A stretch of DNA of 64,000 nt. It comes from a virus. Its lineage: Duplodnaviria; Caudoviricetes. Below the pieces are notes generated by a model. It saw only the letters and a list, made by a program, of their open reading frames with translations. It made no database searches and had not been told where the DNA came from. The position numbers and the translations under genes were made by a program. This document shows positions 2,394 to 26,942 of the stretch, piece by piece (the first letter of the stretch is position 1; the number at the start of each line of letters is the position of its first letter). The DNA lies in the IMG/VR virus record IMGVR_UViG_3300028738_000008. The stretch is one strand, 5' to 3'.

Positions 2394-5300
2394 ATGGCAA
2401 AACTAACCACAGACTTATTAACAGGCGTTCAATTCTTATTGAATATTGATTTACCTGTAAGCGGTTCGTCAATAATCGAAACCGATCCGACCGTTCCAAA
2501 TTATATTAAGCAAATATCATCAGGTGATATTGCTAACTGGAATTCTAAACAGCCTGCTGGAAATTATCAGTCGGCTTCGGGATTTACTGCCCATGCTACT
2601 GACTTAAATATTCATTATGCTCAGTCTGGCATCACTATAACTGAAAGTCAGGTAACTAATCTATCTACAGATTTAGCGAATAGATCACTAACAGGACACA
2701 CTCATTCACAATATTTAACGACCGAAAATGACCCGACAGTACCTGATAATGTTAAGGCTATAACTACTGGCGATACAGCTAACTGGAATTCTAAACAGCC
2801 TGCTGGCGATTATGTGCTTACGCCTACTTTTACAGGACATACTAGCGATTTGACAATTCACTATCAGCAATCTGGTATAACTATTACCGAAAATCAGGTG
2901 ACTAATCTTGTTAACGATTTAGCTGGCAAGTCATCTACTGGACATACACATACTGGCGTATATCAGCCTATTGGAGCATATTTAGTCACTGCTGATATTG
3001 CTGGCAAAGAAGACTCTAGCAATAAAGTGACAATTATAACATCAGGTTCTACAAATACTCAATACCCAAGTGCTAAGCTTCTTTATGATCAATTAGCAAC
3101 TAAACAGCCAACAGGGGCTTATTTAACGTCATTCACTGAAACCGATCCCACTGTTCCAGCTAATGTTAAGGCAATAACTACAGGCGACACCACCAACTGG
3201 AATTCAAAGCAAGCTTCTGGCGATTATGTGCTTACGCCTACATTTACAGGACATACCGCCAATGCTACTATACACTATGCACAGTCTGGTATAACTATTA
3301 CCGAAAGTCAAGTGACAAACCTTGTTAATGACTTAGCTGGTAAGTCATCTACAGGGCATACGCATACAGGCGTTTATCAGCCTGTTGGCAGTTATTTAGT
3401 CGCTGCTGATATTACAGGCAAAGAAGATAGTTCTAACAAAGTAACAATTATAACATCAGGTTCTACTAACACTCAATATCCAAGTGCTAAATTGCTTTAT
3501 GACCAATTAGCAACCAAACAGCCAACAGGAGCTTATTTATTGCCTGCTGATATTACAGGTAAAATGAATTTAAATCAAGCTAGCCGCCAGACAATTATAA
3601 ATGGCGCACCCACATTCAGCGAAGGCTTGACATTAGGAACTAATCCAACAGGAACAACTTTTGAAGCAGGTAAAATTTATTATGATGCCCCTAATAAAAC
3701 TTTGGGAATTTGCATTGATACTGATGTTACAATACAATTAGGTCAGGAGGAACTTGTTTTATGTTATAACAATACTGGCGCAGATATTCCTAACGGTATG
3801 ATGGTATACCCAACAGGCGCAAATGGCGATATGCCTACGATAGCTTTAGCTAGAGCTGATAACACTGTTTTAGGATCATTCCTAGACATTGGTATGACTA
3901 CACAGGTTATACCGAATGGACAAAGTGGATTTGTTACAAACAGAGGAATTGTTCATAACATAGATACGTCTGCTTTTGTTGCTGGCGATACATTATATCT
4001 TAGCACATCTGTTTGGGGTGGCGTAACCAAAGTGCCGCCTACCAGCATTGACGACTTCTTGGTAAAAGTAGGTGTGGCATTAATGATAAGTCCAACTGTA
4101 GGTTCAATATATGTTAGACAAATTCTAAATAATAGAATAACTGACCTTGTTGATGTTGCCATTGATACGCCTATCGTTGATCAAACTTTAGTATGGAATG
4201 GCTTGAACTGGATCAACAAAAACTTGGCATCAGTAAATGCTGGTATTGGAGTTAATTTCTATCTTGATGATACTCAGATTATAACAGGCGGAACGCAATC
4301 AGTCGCATTACATACACTATCAAAAGTGCCAGTAACAACAACCGAAGTTATTGATCAGGTCACGCTTGTAACAGGAAATTTAACACAAATATTAGACAGA
4401 TACTTGTATGACGTGGCATTGGGCGGAACGCAAATAGACGCTGGCGCATGGGGTTTTAACACATACTGTATGGTCAATAACTCTGGAGGTATTGCCACAA
4501 TTCCTGTGACAATGCGTAAAGTTGTTGCTGGTACAGGCACTGTGACGATTACAGGCACTGGAACATCAAGAACAGCCACAGTATCAGGCGGAACGCCATT
4601 TGTTGCTGGCGACGTAAATGCAAATATGACGCTTTCTGGTCTACTTAGAACTTCAACTGCTATATTTAGAATCATTGCTTATACCAGTACTTCTGTAGTT
4701 ACTGTTGAGACATTGACAACATATGTTAATGAGGCTAATGTCGCATACAGCAATCATAAATTTTTATTTACTGATAATATAACCGAAATTAATCAAACAA
4801 CTGTTGGCTTAACCACAACAAATTCATTTCAGCCTGCTTTTAGCATAAATGCTACTGATAAATTGGGCGTGACTTATTATGGTCAGAGTGACACAAATAA
4901 CAGAACTGTTACACTTTATCATAATGGAACAACCCATTATACTAATTTCACGACGCCTTTAGTTATTAGACATAATGACTTATCTGGATTACAAGGCGGT
5001 ACGTCAACAGAAAGATACCATGTACCAGCCGCTACTGCAACGTTGCTAGCTGCTTTAACATCAACTTCTGATGAATTAAATGCGTTGCATGGCATTCCAT
5101 CGGGCTTAACCGCCACTGAATTAGGATATGTTGATGGCGTAACATCGTCTATTCAAACGCAATTAAATGCTAAACTCGGTAAAGTTAGAACTACATATTC
5201 TATAACAGGCGCAACGACCTTATCATCAACGCATGCAGGTGCAACCATTGAATGTAACGGAACATTTGCACTAACATTGGGTAATGCTACGCAGCAGGGC

Positions 5301-24676: not shown

Positions 24677-26296
24677 ATGGAAAGAATATATAACGATATT
24701 ACAGTCGATAATGTAAATTACAAATGGTTCGTAAAGCATTATAACAGCGTTGGCGATTTTGTCTATATTCAATTAGACGGCAAAGTAGTTTTCCTCGACA
24801 AAGTAGCGTCATTACCTGTTCAACCCGAAACTATAAAAATAATTATTGCTAAATTAAATAAAGCTATGAGTAAAGTGAACCCTAATTTGAAGAGTGGTGT
24901 ATCTGATTTAAAATCGGATGAAAGACTTGCTGGTGGATTTGGAACCAGATCGGCTAAACAAGAAGATTTAGCTCTGCTACGTAGAGTTGTGTTAGCGAAC
25001 CTTTTATGGGAAAATATTGCGTATGCAAACGGTGAAGACGTTTCAAAGCAGATTAGCATGCTGATCCCAAAATGCGATCCTACCGAAGTGGCTAATCTTG
25101 CTGTCGAAGCGAGATTGGAACAGAAACTTCGTCACACGCCGTTATTTATCTGCGTTGAAATGCTTAAGTATCCAGAACATGCTGCATTGGTTGCCGATAT
25201 CTTACCAAAGATTATCACCAGAGCCGACATGATCACCGACTTTCTTGCTATCTACAAGAAAATGAATGGTGGCAAGCTTAAACCGCTTGCAGCAGCTGCA
25301 AAGAAAGGTTTATCGAAAGCATTTTATAACTTTAACGAGTATCAGTTTGCCAAGTATGATCGCAATGCTGAAATTAAACTGAGAGACGCTATGTTCTTGG
25401 TTCACCCAAAACCTGCACAAGGCAAGGCTGAACTTTACAAAAAAATCGCTGATCGTAATCTTAAGACTCCTGACACATGGGAAGTTGCCTTATCGACAGG
25501 TAAGGATAAGAAAGCCACATGGGAGAGACTGATTGACGAAAAGAAAATCGGTGGTTTAGCAATGCTGCGTAATGTACGTAACATGGTACAGGCTAGTGTT
25601 AATTCAAATAGCATTAGAAAAGGCTTAAAGAACTTGAACAGTTCAATGTTATTGCCTTTGAACTACTTAACAGCTTCGAGATTCGCACCTGAATATTCGA
25701 GAGATATTGAGGACGCTATGGTTGAATCTTACGAGAATCTTCCAAAGCTTTCTGGTAAGACGCTATTCATTGTTGACGTATCAGGGTCAATGGGTTCAGT
25801 AACAAGTGGTCAATCGCAAATGAACCGAATGGATCATGCATGTGCTATGGCGATGCTTGCAATCAATCAGTGCGAAAGCTATGAAATTGTTGCAACTGCT
25901 GGTAGCGACGGAATGCACAAAGGTGCTCACGAGCATATCAAAAATCCTAAGAAAGGCTTCGATGTCTTTCAGCAGATTATGGACACGAGAAGTCGAATCG
26001 GCGGTGGTGGTATTTTCACCAGACAGTGTATCGAATGGTGTAAAGCCAACGTATCAGATAATTTCGACAGAATTATCATATTCTCCGACTCTCAGGATTG
26101 CGATTTACCAAATCAGAGAATTCCTGCACCTTATGGTAAGTTCAACTACATCTGCGATGTGTCCTCAGAAAAACGAGGCGTAAACTTCAAGAATGTGTGG
26201 ACTGCTGAAATCACTGGTTTCTCTGAGAATTTCTTGACATACATCGCTGCTCACGAAGGTCTTACTAACAAGTTTGACGAGCAGAACGAAATTTAA
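24677..26296 (+). CDS. rsr: Ro60/Rsr (TROVE + vWA) RNA-binding protein
   Basis: LRHTP, TRADM..DF, QFAKYDR, LRDAMFL.HPKP, TWE..LS, AMLRN.RN, VDVSGSM, IIFSD; TROVE core likely starts at ATG 24866. Confidence 0.92.
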   Translation: MERIYNDITVDNVNYKWFVKHYNSVGDFVYIQLDGKVVFLDKVASLPVQPETIKIIIAKLNKAMSKVNPNLKSGVSDLKSDERLAGGFGTRSAKQEDLALLRRVVLANLLWENIAYANGEDVSKQISMLIPKCDPTEVANLAVEARLEQKLRHTPLFICVEMLKYPEHAALVADILPKIITRADMITDFLAIYKKMNGGKLKPLAAAAKKGLSKAFYNFNEYQFAKYDRNAEIKLRDAMFLVHPKPAQGKAELYKKIADRNLKTPDTWEVALSTGKDKKATWERLIDEKKIGGLAMLRNVRNMVQASVNSNSIRKGLKNLNSSMLLPLNYLTASRFAPEYSRDIEDAMVESYENLPKLSGKTLFIVDVSGSMGSVTSGQSQMNRMDHACAMAMLAINQCESYEIVATAGSDGMHKGAHEHIKNPKKGFDVFQQIMDTRSRIGGGGIFTRQCIEWCKANVSDNFDRIIIFSDSQDCDLPNQRIPAPYGKFNYICDVSSEKRGVNFKNVWTAEITGFSENFLTYIAAHEGLTNKFDEQNEI

Positions 26297-26301
26297 TTAA
26301 T

Positions 26302-26347
26302 AAAGGTACTATTTATACTTGCATATTTAGAATTAAATAGTACCTTT
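26302..26347 (+). terminator. 14-bp inverted repeat after rsr, overlapping the ncRNA promoter
   Basis: AAAGGTACTATTTA / TAAATAGTACCTTT. Confidence 0.6.
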
Positions 26348-26348
26348 G
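26318..26348 (+). promoter_or_regulatory. Bacteroidota sigma-A-type promoter for the ncRNA array
   Basis: (C)TTG ... TACCTTTG matches TTTG-N19-TAnnTTTG. Confidence 0.65.
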
Positions 26349-26358
26349 TAAAAAATAT

Positions 26359-26430
26359 TAAGCAATGGTGACTGGCATGGTTACTTCCACCATACATGAA
26401 AATCCACCATGCCACCTAGTTCTTTGCTTA
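26359..26430 (+). ncRNA. Y-RNA-like hairpin unit 1
   Basis: TAAGCAA/TTGCTTA outer stem; TGGTGACT; GGCATGG/CCATGCC inner stem; TTACTTC. Confidence 0.7.
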
Positions 26431-26438
26431 CAATCATT

Positions 26439-26511
26439 TAGATAATGGCGTCTTATACGGTTACTTCACACTTAATGGAAAAACACACCGTATTACCTTT
26501 TTCCTTATCTA
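26439..26511 (+). ncRNA. Y-RNA-like hairpin unit 2
   Basis: TAGATAA/TTATCTA; TGGCGTCT; ATACGG/CCGTAT; TTACTTC; AAAAACAC. Confidence 0.7.
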
Positions 26512-26520
26512 TTTATCAAA

Positions 26521-26587
26521 TCGGAGTGTGTCATGGCTTGTAGACAGTGCACTGAACCTATATAAGGATCGTTCCCTTGCACCCCGA
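26521..26587 (+). ncRNA. degenerate tRNA-like element
   Basis: TCGGAGTG/CACCCCGA closing stem, TGTC/GACA D-like arm, AAGG-ATCGTTC-CCTT T-like arm. Confidence 0.4.
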
Positions 26588-26590
26588 CTA

Positions 26591-26677
26591 ATGAATAATG
26601 GCGACTGAAACAGTTTCATCAACTATAAAAAAAGACAAGTTAATAAAAAACTCTGTTTCGAAACATTCCTTATTCAT
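26591..26677 (+). ncRNA. Y-RNA-like hairpin unit 3
   Basis: ATGAATAA/TTATTCAT; TGGCGACT; GAAACAG/CTGTTTC; TTTCATC. Confidence 0.7.
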
Positions 26678-26686
26678 TTACATTAC

Positions 26687-26810
26687 AGGGCGTTAGCTCA
26701 GTTGGTAGAGCACGAAAAACACTTTTACTCCTTTTCCCTTAATTGTGGCGTTCGTAAAAGTTACTTCAATCCTAATGACGTGGTCAGCGGTTCGAGTCCG
26801 TTACGCCCTA
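26687..26810 (+). ncRNA. tRNA-shaped RNA with the anticodon arm replaced by a permuted Y-like module
   Basis: AGGGCGT/ACGCCCT acceptor, GCTC-AGTTGGTA-GAGC D-arm, TGGTC, AGCGG-TTCGAGT-CCGTT T-arm; 64 nt between positions 28 and 42. Confidence 0.8.
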
Positions 26811-26812
26811 CG

Positions 26813-26897
26813 AAAAACAATAGTGTTAGAGACAGTTTCATCAAAAAAAATCGAAATTTTTCTACAAAAAACTCTGTCTCGACTGTTCTTTGTTTTT
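26813..26897 (+). ncRNA. Y-RNA-like hairpin unit 5
   Basis: AAAAACAA/TTGTTTTT; GAGACAG/CTGTCTC; TTTCATC; AAAAAACT. Confidence 0.7.
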
Positions 26898-26904
26898 AGA
26901 ATAT

Positions 26905-26942
26905 AAAAAAGTCAACATACACAAAATATGTTGACTTTTTTT
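26905..26942 (+). terminator. intrinsic terminator ending the ncRNA array
   Basis: AAAAAAGTCAACATA / TATGTTGACTTTTTT. Confidence 0.85.

What the first reader, a model, noticed from the sequence alone, without database searches (positions are those of the whole stretch)
26687..26810. tRNA whose anticodon arm is replaced by a circularly permuted copy of the Y-like unit
Seen: canonical acceptor (AGGGCGT/ACGCCCT, discriminator A, no encoded CCA), D-arm with G18G19, variable loop TGGTC and T-arm TTCGAGT. Between positions 28 and 42 lie 64 nt containing the array unit's halves in reverse order. The 3' half comes first (AAAAACA-CTTTTAC-TCCTTTTCCC), then the 5' half (TGGCGTTC-GTAAAAG-TTACTTC), and CTTTTAC/GTAAAAG still pair. 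Known: YrlA Y RNAs are tRNA mimics in which the Ro stem replaces the anticodon stem, but with permuted order (free ends in the Ro stem, closed acceptor). Inference: this is the opposite topology, a real tRNA body with free acceptor ends carrying an internal Ro-binding module. It could be an evolutionary intermediate between tRNA and YrlA, an anticodon-less decoy for tRNA nucleases, or a precursor converted to YrlA topology by cleavage and ligation (RtcB is in the same window).
Basis: partly seen in the sequence, partly recalled or inferred. Interest (0 to 1): 0.92.

Follow-up and report, generated by a model that had tools for sequence, protein, structure and literature searches.

The report
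Unpermuted, tRNA-shaped phage Y RNA
Next to the Ro60 gene of a crAss-like phage lies a conserved small RNA gene that is a complete tRNA body with open acceptor ends, whose anticodon arm is replaced by the Ro60-binding module of bacterial YrlA Y RNAs. It has the same parts as YrlA but cut open at a different place, a gene arrangement I could not find described.

Summary
Window 26687-26810 scores as a tRNA (Rfam 43.7 bits) with 64 nt in place of the anticodon stem-loop. That insert holds the motifs of the neighbouring Y-like hairpins in swapped order.

It is a homologue of YrlA (Rfam RF02553):
- A profile built only from ordinary YrlAs of other Ro60 phages matches the window element end to end once it is rotated (52.9 bits). 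In native order it matches only as two swapped pieces.
- About 75 distinct relatives lie beside the Ro60 gene in crAss-like phages, including the cultured crAss001.
- Compensatory changes occur in all seven acceptor pairs and in six of eight pairs of the insert's inner stem.
- The base after the discriminator is C in 46 of 46 elements, as in the phages' own tRNA genes. Two distant relatives encode a full CCA.

So the ends are tRNA ends. The likely product is a CCA-tailed, anticodon-less Y RNA cut out by tRNA-processing enzymes.

The intron reading is rejected. RtcB re-permutation is disfavoured: RtcB is absent from crAss001, and its chemistry does not fit the ends. On the Ro60 tree the tRNA order appears derived, not ancestral.

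Expression and Ro60 binding are untested. The scan noted ordinary phage YrlAs before, none among the notes retrieved in this topology. Verdict: a new variant of a known kind.

The parts
24677..26296 (+). Ro60 (TROVE + vWA) gene, the presumed protein partner
   Evidence: Pfam TROVE 4.3e-14 and vWA_Ro60. Matches the Thermus phage phiRo60 structures 9KOP and 9L5Y at E = 4e-17. The MIDAS DxSGS motif is invariant in 10 relatives. About 65% identical to crAss001 gp96.
26318..26350 (+). Candidate Bacteroidota-type promoter (TTG, 19 nt, TACCTTTG) for the RNA array
   Evidence: Read from the sequence. It matches the known TAnnTTTG -7 consensus (own knowledge). The sigma-70 scan finds nothing here. This is an inference.
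26359..26430 (+). Y-like hairpin unit 1 in ordinary topology (ends in the outer stem)
   Evidence: Folds as an outer plus inner stem with TGGTG and TTACTTC motifs, z = -2.6.
26439..26511 (+). Y-like hairpin unit 2: the same motifs as the tRNA-order element but without the tRNA body
   Evidence: Fold. Aligns with the rotated insert at score 70, against 32 +/- 4.6 for shuffles.
26591..26677 (+). Y-like hairpin unit 3 (variant motif GTTTCATC). It ends 9 nt before the tRNA-like 5' end.
   Evidence: Fold with outer and inner stems, z = -2.2.
26687..26810 (+). tRNA-order YrlA-type Y RNA: the whole element, from acceptor 5' end to discriminator
   Evidence: Rfam tRNA 43.7 bits. Model R1 123 bits. The rotated sequence matches a canonical-YrlA profile at 52.9 bits, E = 2.4e-16.
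26687..26693 (+). Acceptor stem 5' strand. Pairs with 26803-26809; discriminator A at 26810.
   Evidence: 7 of 7 pairs. All seven pairs show compensatory changes across 46 distinct relatives.
26696..26711 (+). D arm (GCTCAGTTGGTAGAGC) with G18 G19
   Evidence: The same sequence is found in canonical phage YrlAs.
26714..26778 (+). The insert that replaces the anticodon arm. In order: A-run, inner stem 5' strand (26722-26728), TCCTTTTCCC (26729-26738), apical loop (26739-26745), TGGCGTTC (26746-26753; corresponds to the Ro60-contacting 5' strand of YrlA), inner stem 3' strand (26754-26760), TTACTTCA (26761-26768), TAAT junction (26769-26778).
   Evidence: Coordinates. Inner stem: 6 of 8 pairs with compensatory changes, and the CC/GG pairs covary. 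The same motifs occur in canonical YrlAs of Xanthomonas phage Tenjo and others.
26781..26802 (+). Variable loop TGGTC and T arm (AGCGG TTCGAGT CCGTT)
   Evidence: T stem 100% paired, with 4 of 5 pairs covarying.
26811..26811 (+). C74, the first trailer base
   Evidence: C in 46 of 46 distinct relatives and in 39 of 40 further elements. It is C in 64 of 84 bona fide tRNA genes of the same loci.
26813..26897 (+). Y-like hairpin unit 4. It starts 3 nt after the tRNA-like 3' end.
   Evidence: Fold.
26911..26942 (+). A+T-rich hairpin (GTCAACATA...TATGTTGAC) followed by a run of T: the likely terminator of the array
   Evidence: Read from the sequence. Not called by the scan because the stem lacks G-C pairs.

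Best explanation
This is a Y RNA of the YrlA family whose gene is arranged in native tRNA order.

Shown:
- It carries every YrlA module: the TGGYG strand, inner stem, TTACTTC/TAAT junction, variable loop, T arm, acceptor stem, D arm, A-run and TTCC strand. The chain is opened in the acceptor stem and closed by a short hairpin at the tip of the Ro60 module.
- This architecture is conserved, with covariation, beside the Ro60 gene of crAss-like phages.

Inferred mechanism:
- The array 26350-26940 is made as one transcript.
- Host RNase P cuts at 26686/26687.
- The tRNA 3'-end pathway trims to C74, and the CCA-adding enzyme completes the CCA.
- These cuts release a roughly 127-nt L-shaped RNA with no anticodon, and also free the flanking Y-like hairpins.
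- Phage Ro60 binds the bulged TGGCG/TTTTCC helix at the end of the extended 'anticodon' arm.
- The tRNA body, now with a genuine CCA end, serves as the effector handle. It tethers Ro60 to, or competes for, a host tRNA-binding factor early in infection.

The identity of that factor is unknown.
For: Identity and topology:
- Rfam tRNA, full-length match.
- A canonical-YrlA HMM matches the rotated element over positions 1-110 (52.9 bits, E = 2.4e-16). The native order matches only as hmm 1-55 to nt 60-114 and hmm 76-111 to nt 6-41. The best of 260 shuffles scores 1.7 bits.
- Genuine canonical YrlAs in other Ro60 phages share the TGGYG, GTTACTTC, TAAT, GGTC, D-arm, AAAA and TGTTCC motifs. Rfam RF02553 recognises them at 30-56 bits.

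Conservation:
- R1 hits of 75 bits or more lie next to the Ro60 gene in about 50 of 92 phage loci, including crAss001 (L001:4471-4614), and in MAG contigs.
- Across 46 distinct sequences, 97.4% of cells are paired and 22 of 26 pairs show compensatory changes. None of 500 shuffles reaches this, and slid controls give 37-53%.

Free tRNA-type ends:
- A 7-bp acceptor stem, with compensatory changes at 7 of 7 pairs.
- C74 in 46 of 46 and 39 of 40 elements, with CAA and CTA trailers like the phages' real tRNA genes (64 of 84 have C74).
- L117:710-834 and L125:2605-2728 encode discriminator plus CCA.
- The apical cap is only 25-33 nt, with short hairpins often capped by GUAA or GAAG.

Precedent and context:
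- M. smegmatis YrlA is cut by RNase P and receives CCA in vivo while bound to Rsr, and is processed from a precursor that also holds YrlB (PMC4201824).
- A phage Ro60 binds phage Y-like RNAs and host PNPase (PMC12135203).
- The crAss001 TROVE gene is an early gene (PMC8375218).
Against: - No expression, end-mapping or binding data exist for this or any related element.
- The element's own MFE is not better than shuffles (z = -1.0).
- The strand corresponding to the Ro60 contact reads GGCGUUCG, or RGYG across the family. It is not the published GNCGAA(N)G.
- In all characterised Y RNAs the Ro60-binding stem is formed by the 5' and 3' ends (10.1101/312249). Binding to a version capped by a loop is therefore unproven.
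- A66-nt stretch of conserved sequence could also serve another protein.
- The covariation alignment was fitted to the model, which favours the model structure.
Confidence: 0.62

Rival explanations
1. Processing punctuation only. The tRNA-shaped body is mainly a cleavage signal, like mascRNA in MALAT1 or tRNAs in mitochondrial transcripts. It lets RNase P and RNase Z dice the polycistronic array into single Y-like hairpins. The excised tRNA-like piece is a by-product with no function of its own.
For: The element is flanked within 3-9 nt by Y-like hairpins (units 3 and 4). Related loci have several tRNA-order elements interleaved with hairpins. Variants that keep only the acceptor stem and T arm, the minimal RNase P/Z/CCA substrate, are common.
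Against: The insert inside the 'by-product' is its most conserved part and carries the complete Ro60-type module. Canonical YrlAs keep the same tRNA body without usable ends, so the body is selected for more than cleavage (PMC4201824; 10.1101/312249). The D arm and tertiary-contact bases are conserved in type A elements.
Confidence: 0.15
2. Decoy or competitive inhibitor. The anticodon-less, CCA-ended tRNA mimic, with or without Ro60, soaks up host tRNA-directed defence enzymes or toxins that recognise the elbow or acceptor end. This would protect host and phage tRNAs during infection.
For: Hughes et al. proposed that the YrlA tRNA-like domain, which is not cut by the anticodon nuclease, may act as a competitive inhibitor (PMC7790460). 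The window also encodes RtcB and a HAD_SAK_2 RNA-repair-type phosphatase, so tRNA damage appears to be an issue for this phage. The crAss001 Ro60 gene is early. Several tRNA-order copies per phage would suit a stoichiometric sponge.
Against: No defence nuclease or toxin partner has been identified. The RNA-repair genes are not conserved with the element. A decoy needs no Ro60-binding module, yet that module is the best-conserved part.
Confidence: 0.13
3. Precursor that is re-permuted. After transcription the acceptor ends are ligated and the apical loop is cut, by RtcB or a host ligase. The product would be an ordinary YrlA with ends in the Ro60 stem.
For: RtcB is encoded in the window (15176-16501) and in its closest relative. 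Bacteroides hosts have their own RtcB (control row). Permuted tRNA genes of Cyanidioschyzon mature through circular intermediates (own knowledge).
Against: RtcB is absent from complete genomes carrying the element: crAss001, cr106_1 and the L012 phage. RtcB needs 3'-P or cyclic-P plus 5'-OH ends (PMC7790460), whereas tRNA processing gives 5'-P and 3'-OH (established enzymology). C74 is conserved, and CCA is encoded in L117 and L125, which argues for a functional free 3' end. The apical caps are short, stable-looking hairpins with no conserved cleavage motif.
Confidence: 0.04
4. Intron-containing decoding tRNA. The 50-64-nt insert is spliced out to give a normal tRNA.
Against: The calls are not conserved. 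46 relatives give more than 20 different 'anticodons', with intron positions 31-41 and lengths 34-72. Near-identical elements differ, for example L001 Asn-GTT against L039 Phe-GAA. In the window, 457 of 871 arbitrary internal deletions are also called tRNA, with 10 or more anticodons, so the call is uninformative. The residual anticodon stem has 3 of 5 pairs (sequence). The 'intron' is the conserved, YrlA-homologous part. No known bacterial mechanism splices 50-70-nt tRNA introns (own knowledge).
Confidence: 0.02

Closest known systems
YrlA Y RNAs (Rfam RF02553; Salmonella rsr-yrlBA-rtcBA operon, many bacteria and phages; Chen et al. 2014, PMC4201824; Wang et al. 2018, 10.1101/312249)
   Same: Encoded beside Ro60 on the same strand. 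Same modules and conserved motifs: Ro60-type bulged helix, junction, and a tRNA-like D arm, T arm and acceptor domain with tertiary-contact bases. The Ro60 module sits where the anticodon stem would be. Sequence homology is shown after rotation.
   Different: YrlA has its 5' and 3' ends in the Ro60 stem and a closed acceptor hairpin, with the T arm before the D arm. Here the ends are in a 7-bp acceptor stem with a discriminator and C74, the Ro60 module is capped by a loop, and the D arm precedes the T arm. Rfam's YrlA model does not detect the element.
[quoted passage not shown]
   Same: A Ro60-bound Y RNA whose tRNA-like domain has a 7-bp acceptor stem, a free 5' end made by RNase P and a CCA tail. 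It is processed from a multi-RNA precursor.
   Different: The mycobacterial RNA becomes a two-piece (82 + 65 nt) molecule that also keeps free ends in the Ro60 stem. The phage element would be a single chain with only tRNA-type ends, fixed at gene level.
D. radiodurans Yrn1
   Same: A Y RNA whose tRNA-like parts run in D-then-T order relative to the 5' end (PMC4201824).
   Different: In Yrn1 the Ro60 stem takes the place of the acceptor stem and an anticodon-like arm is present. Here the acceptor is genuine and the Ro60 module takes the place of the anticodon arm.
Thermus phage phiLo Yrl1/Yrl2 with phiRo60 (PMC12135203)
   Same: Phage-encoded Ro60 with phage-encoded Y-like RNAs next to the gene. 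The window's Ro60 matches this structure.
   Different: Yrl1 and Yrl2 are stem-bulge-stem RNAs with ends in the stem and a CGAA motif. No tRNA body is reported.
tmRNA tRNA-like domain and viral 3' tRNA-like structures
   Same: tRNA mimics with a free CCA end that lack a normal anticodon arm. The type B and C relatives (acceptor stem plus T arm only) resemble the tmRNA TLD.
   Different: Those are aminoacylated through defined identity elements (G3:U70 in tmRNA) and act in translation or replication. No such identity element is visible here, and the partner is Ro60, not SmpB.
Circularly permuted tRNA genes (Cyanidioschyzon merolae)
   Same: An example of gene-level circular permutation of a tRNA-type RNA.
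   Different: Those yield normal decoding tRNAs after circularisation and processing. Here the two gene orders (YrlA and this element) are expected to give different mature topologies.

Membership tests
YrlA (Rfam RF02553) | Encoded within about 4 kb of a Ro60/TROVE gene, on the same strand | tested here: met
   The element starts 391 nt after the TROVE stop codon, on the same strand. The same holds in about 50 related loci.
YrlA (Rfam RF02553) | tRNA-like effector domain: D arm, T arm, acceptor-type stem and conserved tertiary-contact bases | tested here: met
   Rfam tRNA 43.7 bits. U8, A14, G18 G19, the T-loop TTCGAGT and the G15:C48 pair are present.
YrlA (Rfam RF02553) | Ro60-binding helix with the conserved 5'-strand motif GNCGAA(N)G | tested here: inconclusive
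   The window has GGCGTTCG and the family consensus is RGYG(N3-4). GNCG is kept but AA is not. The canonical phage YrlAs used for comparison show the same TGGYG form.
YrlA (Rfam RF02553) | Sequence homology across all modules | tested here: met
   A canonical-YrlA HMM matches the rotated element at 52.9 bits, E = 2.4e-16, over hmm positions 1-110. Shuffles reach at most 1.7 bits.
YrlA (Rfam RF02553) | Topology: 5' and 3' ends pair to form the Ro60 stem, the acceptor stem is closed by a loop, and the T arm precedes the D arm | tested here: not met
   The order is acceptor 5' strand, D arm, Ro60 module, T arm, acceptor 3' strand. The acceptor is open and the Ro60 module is loop-capped. The canonical model R2 gives only a 34.8-bit straddling hit, against 123 bits for R1.
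YrlA (Rfam RF02553) | Reaches the Rfam gathering score (69 bits) | tested here: not met
   No RF02553 hit in 26200-27000 even at E <= 10. Canonical phage YrlAs reach 30-56 bits.
YrlA (Rfam RF02553) | Bound by Ro60/Rsr | not testable with these tools
   Needs a pull-down or EMSA.
tRNA (RF00005), as a decoding tRNA | Cloverleaf with a 7-bp acceptor stem, D arm, T arm and discriminator | tested here: met
tRNA (RF00005), as a decoding tRNA | A 5-bp anticodon stem with a 7-nt loop presenting a conserved anticodon | tested here: not met
   Only 2 stem pairs remain, and 64 nt replace the rest. Default ARAGORN finds nothing. Intron-mode calls give more than 20 inconsistent anticodons among relatives.
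tRNA (RF00005), as a decoding tRNA | tRNA-type 3' end (CCA encoded or added) | tested here: inconclusive
   C74 is universal and CCA is encoded in L117 and L125. Addition of CA in vivo has not been shown.

The most novel reading that the evidence does not exclude
The CCA-ended, anticodon-less tRNA body is a working tRNA end. It is charged, or is recognised by EF-Tu, the ribosome, an aminoacyl-tRNA synthetase, or a defence toxin that targets the acceptor end. The phage Ro60 particle is thereby delivered to, or shields, the host's tRNA and translation machinery. This would be a Y RNA function that requires a free acceptor end, and it would explain why M. smegmatis opens its YrlA with RNase P.
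Probability: 0.15. Interest if true: 0.9.

Novelty: new variant of a known kind. Interest (0 to 1): 0.66.

Why it matters
Y RNAs are the obligate partners of Ro60 from bacteria to humans, yet nobody knows what the tRNA-like domain of bacterial YrlA binds. All described YrlAs are 'circularly permuted tRNAs' with a closed acceptor stem, and the lack of a free CCA end has been treated as a family trait. This element shows that a large group of phages keeps the same RNA in native tRNA order with real tRNA ends. The group includes crAss-like phages, among the most abundant viruses of the human gut.

- It says the acceptor end can be part of the functional surface.
- It gives a natural contrast pair (open against closed acceptor) for finding the effector.
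- It suggests how the two forms interconvert: tandem YrlA copies already mimic the other order.
- It makes the question testable in a cultured system, crAss001 on Bacteroides intestinalis, where two such genes sit unannotated after gp96.
- It shows that tRNA and YrlA search tools both mis-handle these genes.

Tried and rejected
- RNA-seq evidence. The look-up of sequencing runs listed 24 DNA holders (peat metagenomes) and no RNA holder for 24700-27000. No RNA run was listed for 26300-26950. Expression could therefore not be examined. The crAss001 loci came from the fetch of an annotated region and cannot be used for that tool.
- Intron reading. ARAGORN -i and brute-force deletions gave inconsistent, uninformative anticodon calls. 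Rejected.
- RtcB linkage. PF01139 was found only in the window and its closest relative, not in crAss001, cr106_1, L007 or L012. It is not a conserved partner.
- Rfam YrlA on the window: no hit.
- The sigma-70 promoter and terminator scan found nothing useful in the A+T-rich array.
- My first regex census of topologies was noisy or buggy. It was replaced by two covariance models.
- R1 hits in loci with tandem canonical YrlAs (L010, L059, L074, L082, L110, L104) are straddling artefacts with 3-5 of 7 acceptor pairs. They are not counted.
- About 23 Ro60 loci have no Y-type RNA within the fetched flanks. These include a jumbo-phage group (L064-L076), L054-56/61 and L006/L009.
- Two reviews (PMC10870794, PMC6047535) and Burroughs & Aravind 2016 are not held. 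A prior description there cannot be excluded.
- No whole genome is held for the window.

Full report
**What is in the window.** The window is part of a crAss-like phage from peat metagenomes. Its TROVE/vWA gene (24677-26296) is about 65% identical to gp96 of Bacteroides phage crAss001 and matches the solved Thermus-phage Ro60. Downstream lie about 600 nt without ORFs. Rfam's tRNA model matches 26687-26810 over its full length (43.7 bits), with 64 nt between the first two pairs of the anticodon stem. Default ARAGORN finds nothing.

**The swapped motif order.** The four neighbouring hairpins fold as outer stem, TGGYG bulge, inner stem, then TTACTTC (or GTTTCATC). The insert carries the same motifs in swapped order. 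Rotated at its apical loop, it aligns to unit 2 at score 70. In native order the score is 40, and shuffles give 32 +/- 4.6. In that alignment the tRNA body sits exactly between TAATGA and GAAAAACA, which are adjacent in unit 2.

**It is a YrlA homologue.** Other Ro60-encoding phages carry ordinary YrlAs next to the gene. Examples are Xanthomonas phage Tenjo, Caulobacter CcrPW, Rhizobium and Gordonia phages, and several IMG/VR contigs.
- Their order is TGGYG, stem, GTTACTTC, TAAT...GGTC, T arm, closed acceptor hairpin, TAGCTCAGTTGGTAGAGC, AAAA, stem, TGTTCC.
- Rfam RF02553 recognises them at 30-56 bits.
- A profile HMM built only from twelve of these matches the rotated window element end to end (hmm 1-110, 52.9 bits, E = 2.4e-16).
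- The native sequence matches only as two pieces in reversed order, and 260 shuffles score at most 1.7 bits. That is the signature of a circular permutation.
- Rfam's YrlA model gives no hit on the window itself.

**It is a conserved family.** A covariance model (R1) built from eight elements finds full-length matches of 75 bits or more directly beside the Ro60 gene in about 50 of 92 phage loci. These include crAss001, cr106_1, cr112_1 and the PhiCrAssBcn isolates, where nothing is annotated.
- Most loci have a second or third copy that keeps the acceptor stem and T arm but has a degenerate D region.
- About 77 distinct elements were collected in all.
- On 46 distinct sequences, 97.4% of cells are paired and 22 of 26 pairs show compensatory changes. 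This covers 7 of 7 acceptor pairs, 6 of 8 inner-stem pairs and 4 of 5 T-stem pairs. None of 500 shuffles reaches this, and slid controls give 37-53% paired.
- The alignment was fitted to the model, which favours it, but the margin is large.
- A canonical-YrlA model (R2) scores 57-115 bits in 15 other phage loci and 22 MAG loci. In crAss-like loci it gives only 30-45-bit straddling hits.

**The ends are tRNA ends.**
- The base after the discriminator is C in 46 of 46 and 39 of 40 distinct elements, usually as CAA or CTA.
- Real tRNA genes in the same loci show the same habit: C74 in 64 of 84, and full CCA in only 17.
- Two divergent relatives, L117:710-834 and L125:2605-2728, encode discriminator plus CCA.
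- The apical cap of the Ro60 module is only 25-33 nt, with short hairpins often closed by GUAA or GAAG.
- Precedent exists. M. smegmatis YrlA, the one YrlA with a 7-bp acceptor stem, is cut by RNase P and CCA-tailed in vivo while bound to Rsr (PMC4201824).
- I therefore infer maturation by RNase P and the tRNA 3' pathway. Because unit 3 ends 9 nt upstream and unit 4 starts 3 nt downstream, the same cuts would release the neighbouring hairpins.

**Rejected or weakened readings.**
- Intron. ARAGORN -i calls Arg-CCT in the window, but more than 20 different anticodons and intron positions among relatives. Near-identical sequences differ, and half of all arbitrary deletions are also 'tRNAs'.
- RtcB re-permutation. 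RtcB is present in the window but absent from complete crAss001, cr106_1 and L012 genomes. Its substrate chemistry (PMC7790460) does not fit RNase P and tRNA 3'-processing products.
- Evolutionary intermediate. On a quick, midpoint-rooted Ro60 tree, canonical-YrlA loci form the basal grade and tRNA-order loci the nested crown. L012 falls elsewhere, and at least 4 changes are needed. Distant lineages (L012, L117, L125) also have the tRNA order.
- Route between the forms. Tandem canonical YrlAs (for example L113) already present D half, 3' strand, 5' strand, T half in tRNA order, with matching acceptor sequences. Permutation by duplication is thus a plausible route. The direction is not proven.

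**What remains open.** There are no data on expression, ends, Ro60 binding or the effector. The Ro60-contact strand is RGYG rather than the published GNCGAA. All characterised Y RNAs bind Ro60 through a stem formed by the RNA's ends, so binding to a loop-capped helix is an inference from conservation.

**Novelty.** I found no paper linking crAss-like phages to Y RNAs or describing a YrlA in tRNA order. Two reviews could not be read. Earlier notes of this scan describe ordinary, permuted phage YrlA-like RNAs; none of the notes retrieved shows this topology.

Noticed in passing
L001:4726-4864 (crAss001); L037:4332-4470 and 4675-4802; L004:5154-5291: A second and third class of tRNA-order Y RNAs per phage. 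They have a perfect 7-bp acceptor stem, a T arm and the swapped Y module, but a degenerate D region and an extra hairpin before the T arm, which resembles the tmRNA TLD or a long variable arm. C74 is present in 39 of 40.
   Followed up: partly
L117:710-834 and L125:2605-2728: tRNA-order Y RNAs from contigs with only 38-41% Ro60 identity encode a full CCA after the discriminator. Their RNA sequence is closer to the window's than crAss001's is, so RNA similarity and Ro60 similarity do not track each other.
   Followed up: partly
L113:2644-2949: Two tandem canonical YrlAs share the same acceptor-stem sequence. The D half of copy 1 plus the T half of copy 2 therefore forms a perfect pseudo-tRNA-order element. 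This is a possible permutation-by-duplication intermediate.
   Followed up: partly
L004:890-979, L002:305-390, L024:1467-1552: Phage genes annotated as tRNA-Ile carry 14-23 extra nt inside the anticodon loop (total length 86-91 nt). They could hold a small intron or be an unusual tRNA.
   Followed up: no
L002:401-705, L007:5022-5329, L063:1933-2286: Phage-encoded tmRNA genes lie close to the Ro60 / Y RNA locus in several of these phages.
   Followed up: no
window 26591-26677 and 26813-26897: Units 3 and 4 of the array replace the family motif GTTACTTC with GTTTCATC, and have long A-rich loops. They may be a distinct Y-like subclass.
   Followed up: no
window 26521-26587: The stretch between units 2 and 3, which another note calls a degenerate tRNA-like element, does not fold better than shuffles (z = +0.36) and matches neither model.
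   Followed up: partly
window 15176-16501, 33097-33642, 29798-30400, 30477-31892: The window also encodes RtcB, a HAD_SAK_2 'Swiss Army Knife' RNA-repair-type phosphatase, DHFR and an SF1 helicase. The RNA-repair genes are not conserved in crAss001.
   Followed up: partly
L064-L076, L054-L056, L061, L006, L009: About 23 Ro60 loci, including a group of 150-435-kb phage contigs, have neither a tRNA-order nor a canonical YrlA within 2.5 kb of the gene. Their partner RNAs, if any, lie elsewhere or are of another kind.
   Followed up: partly
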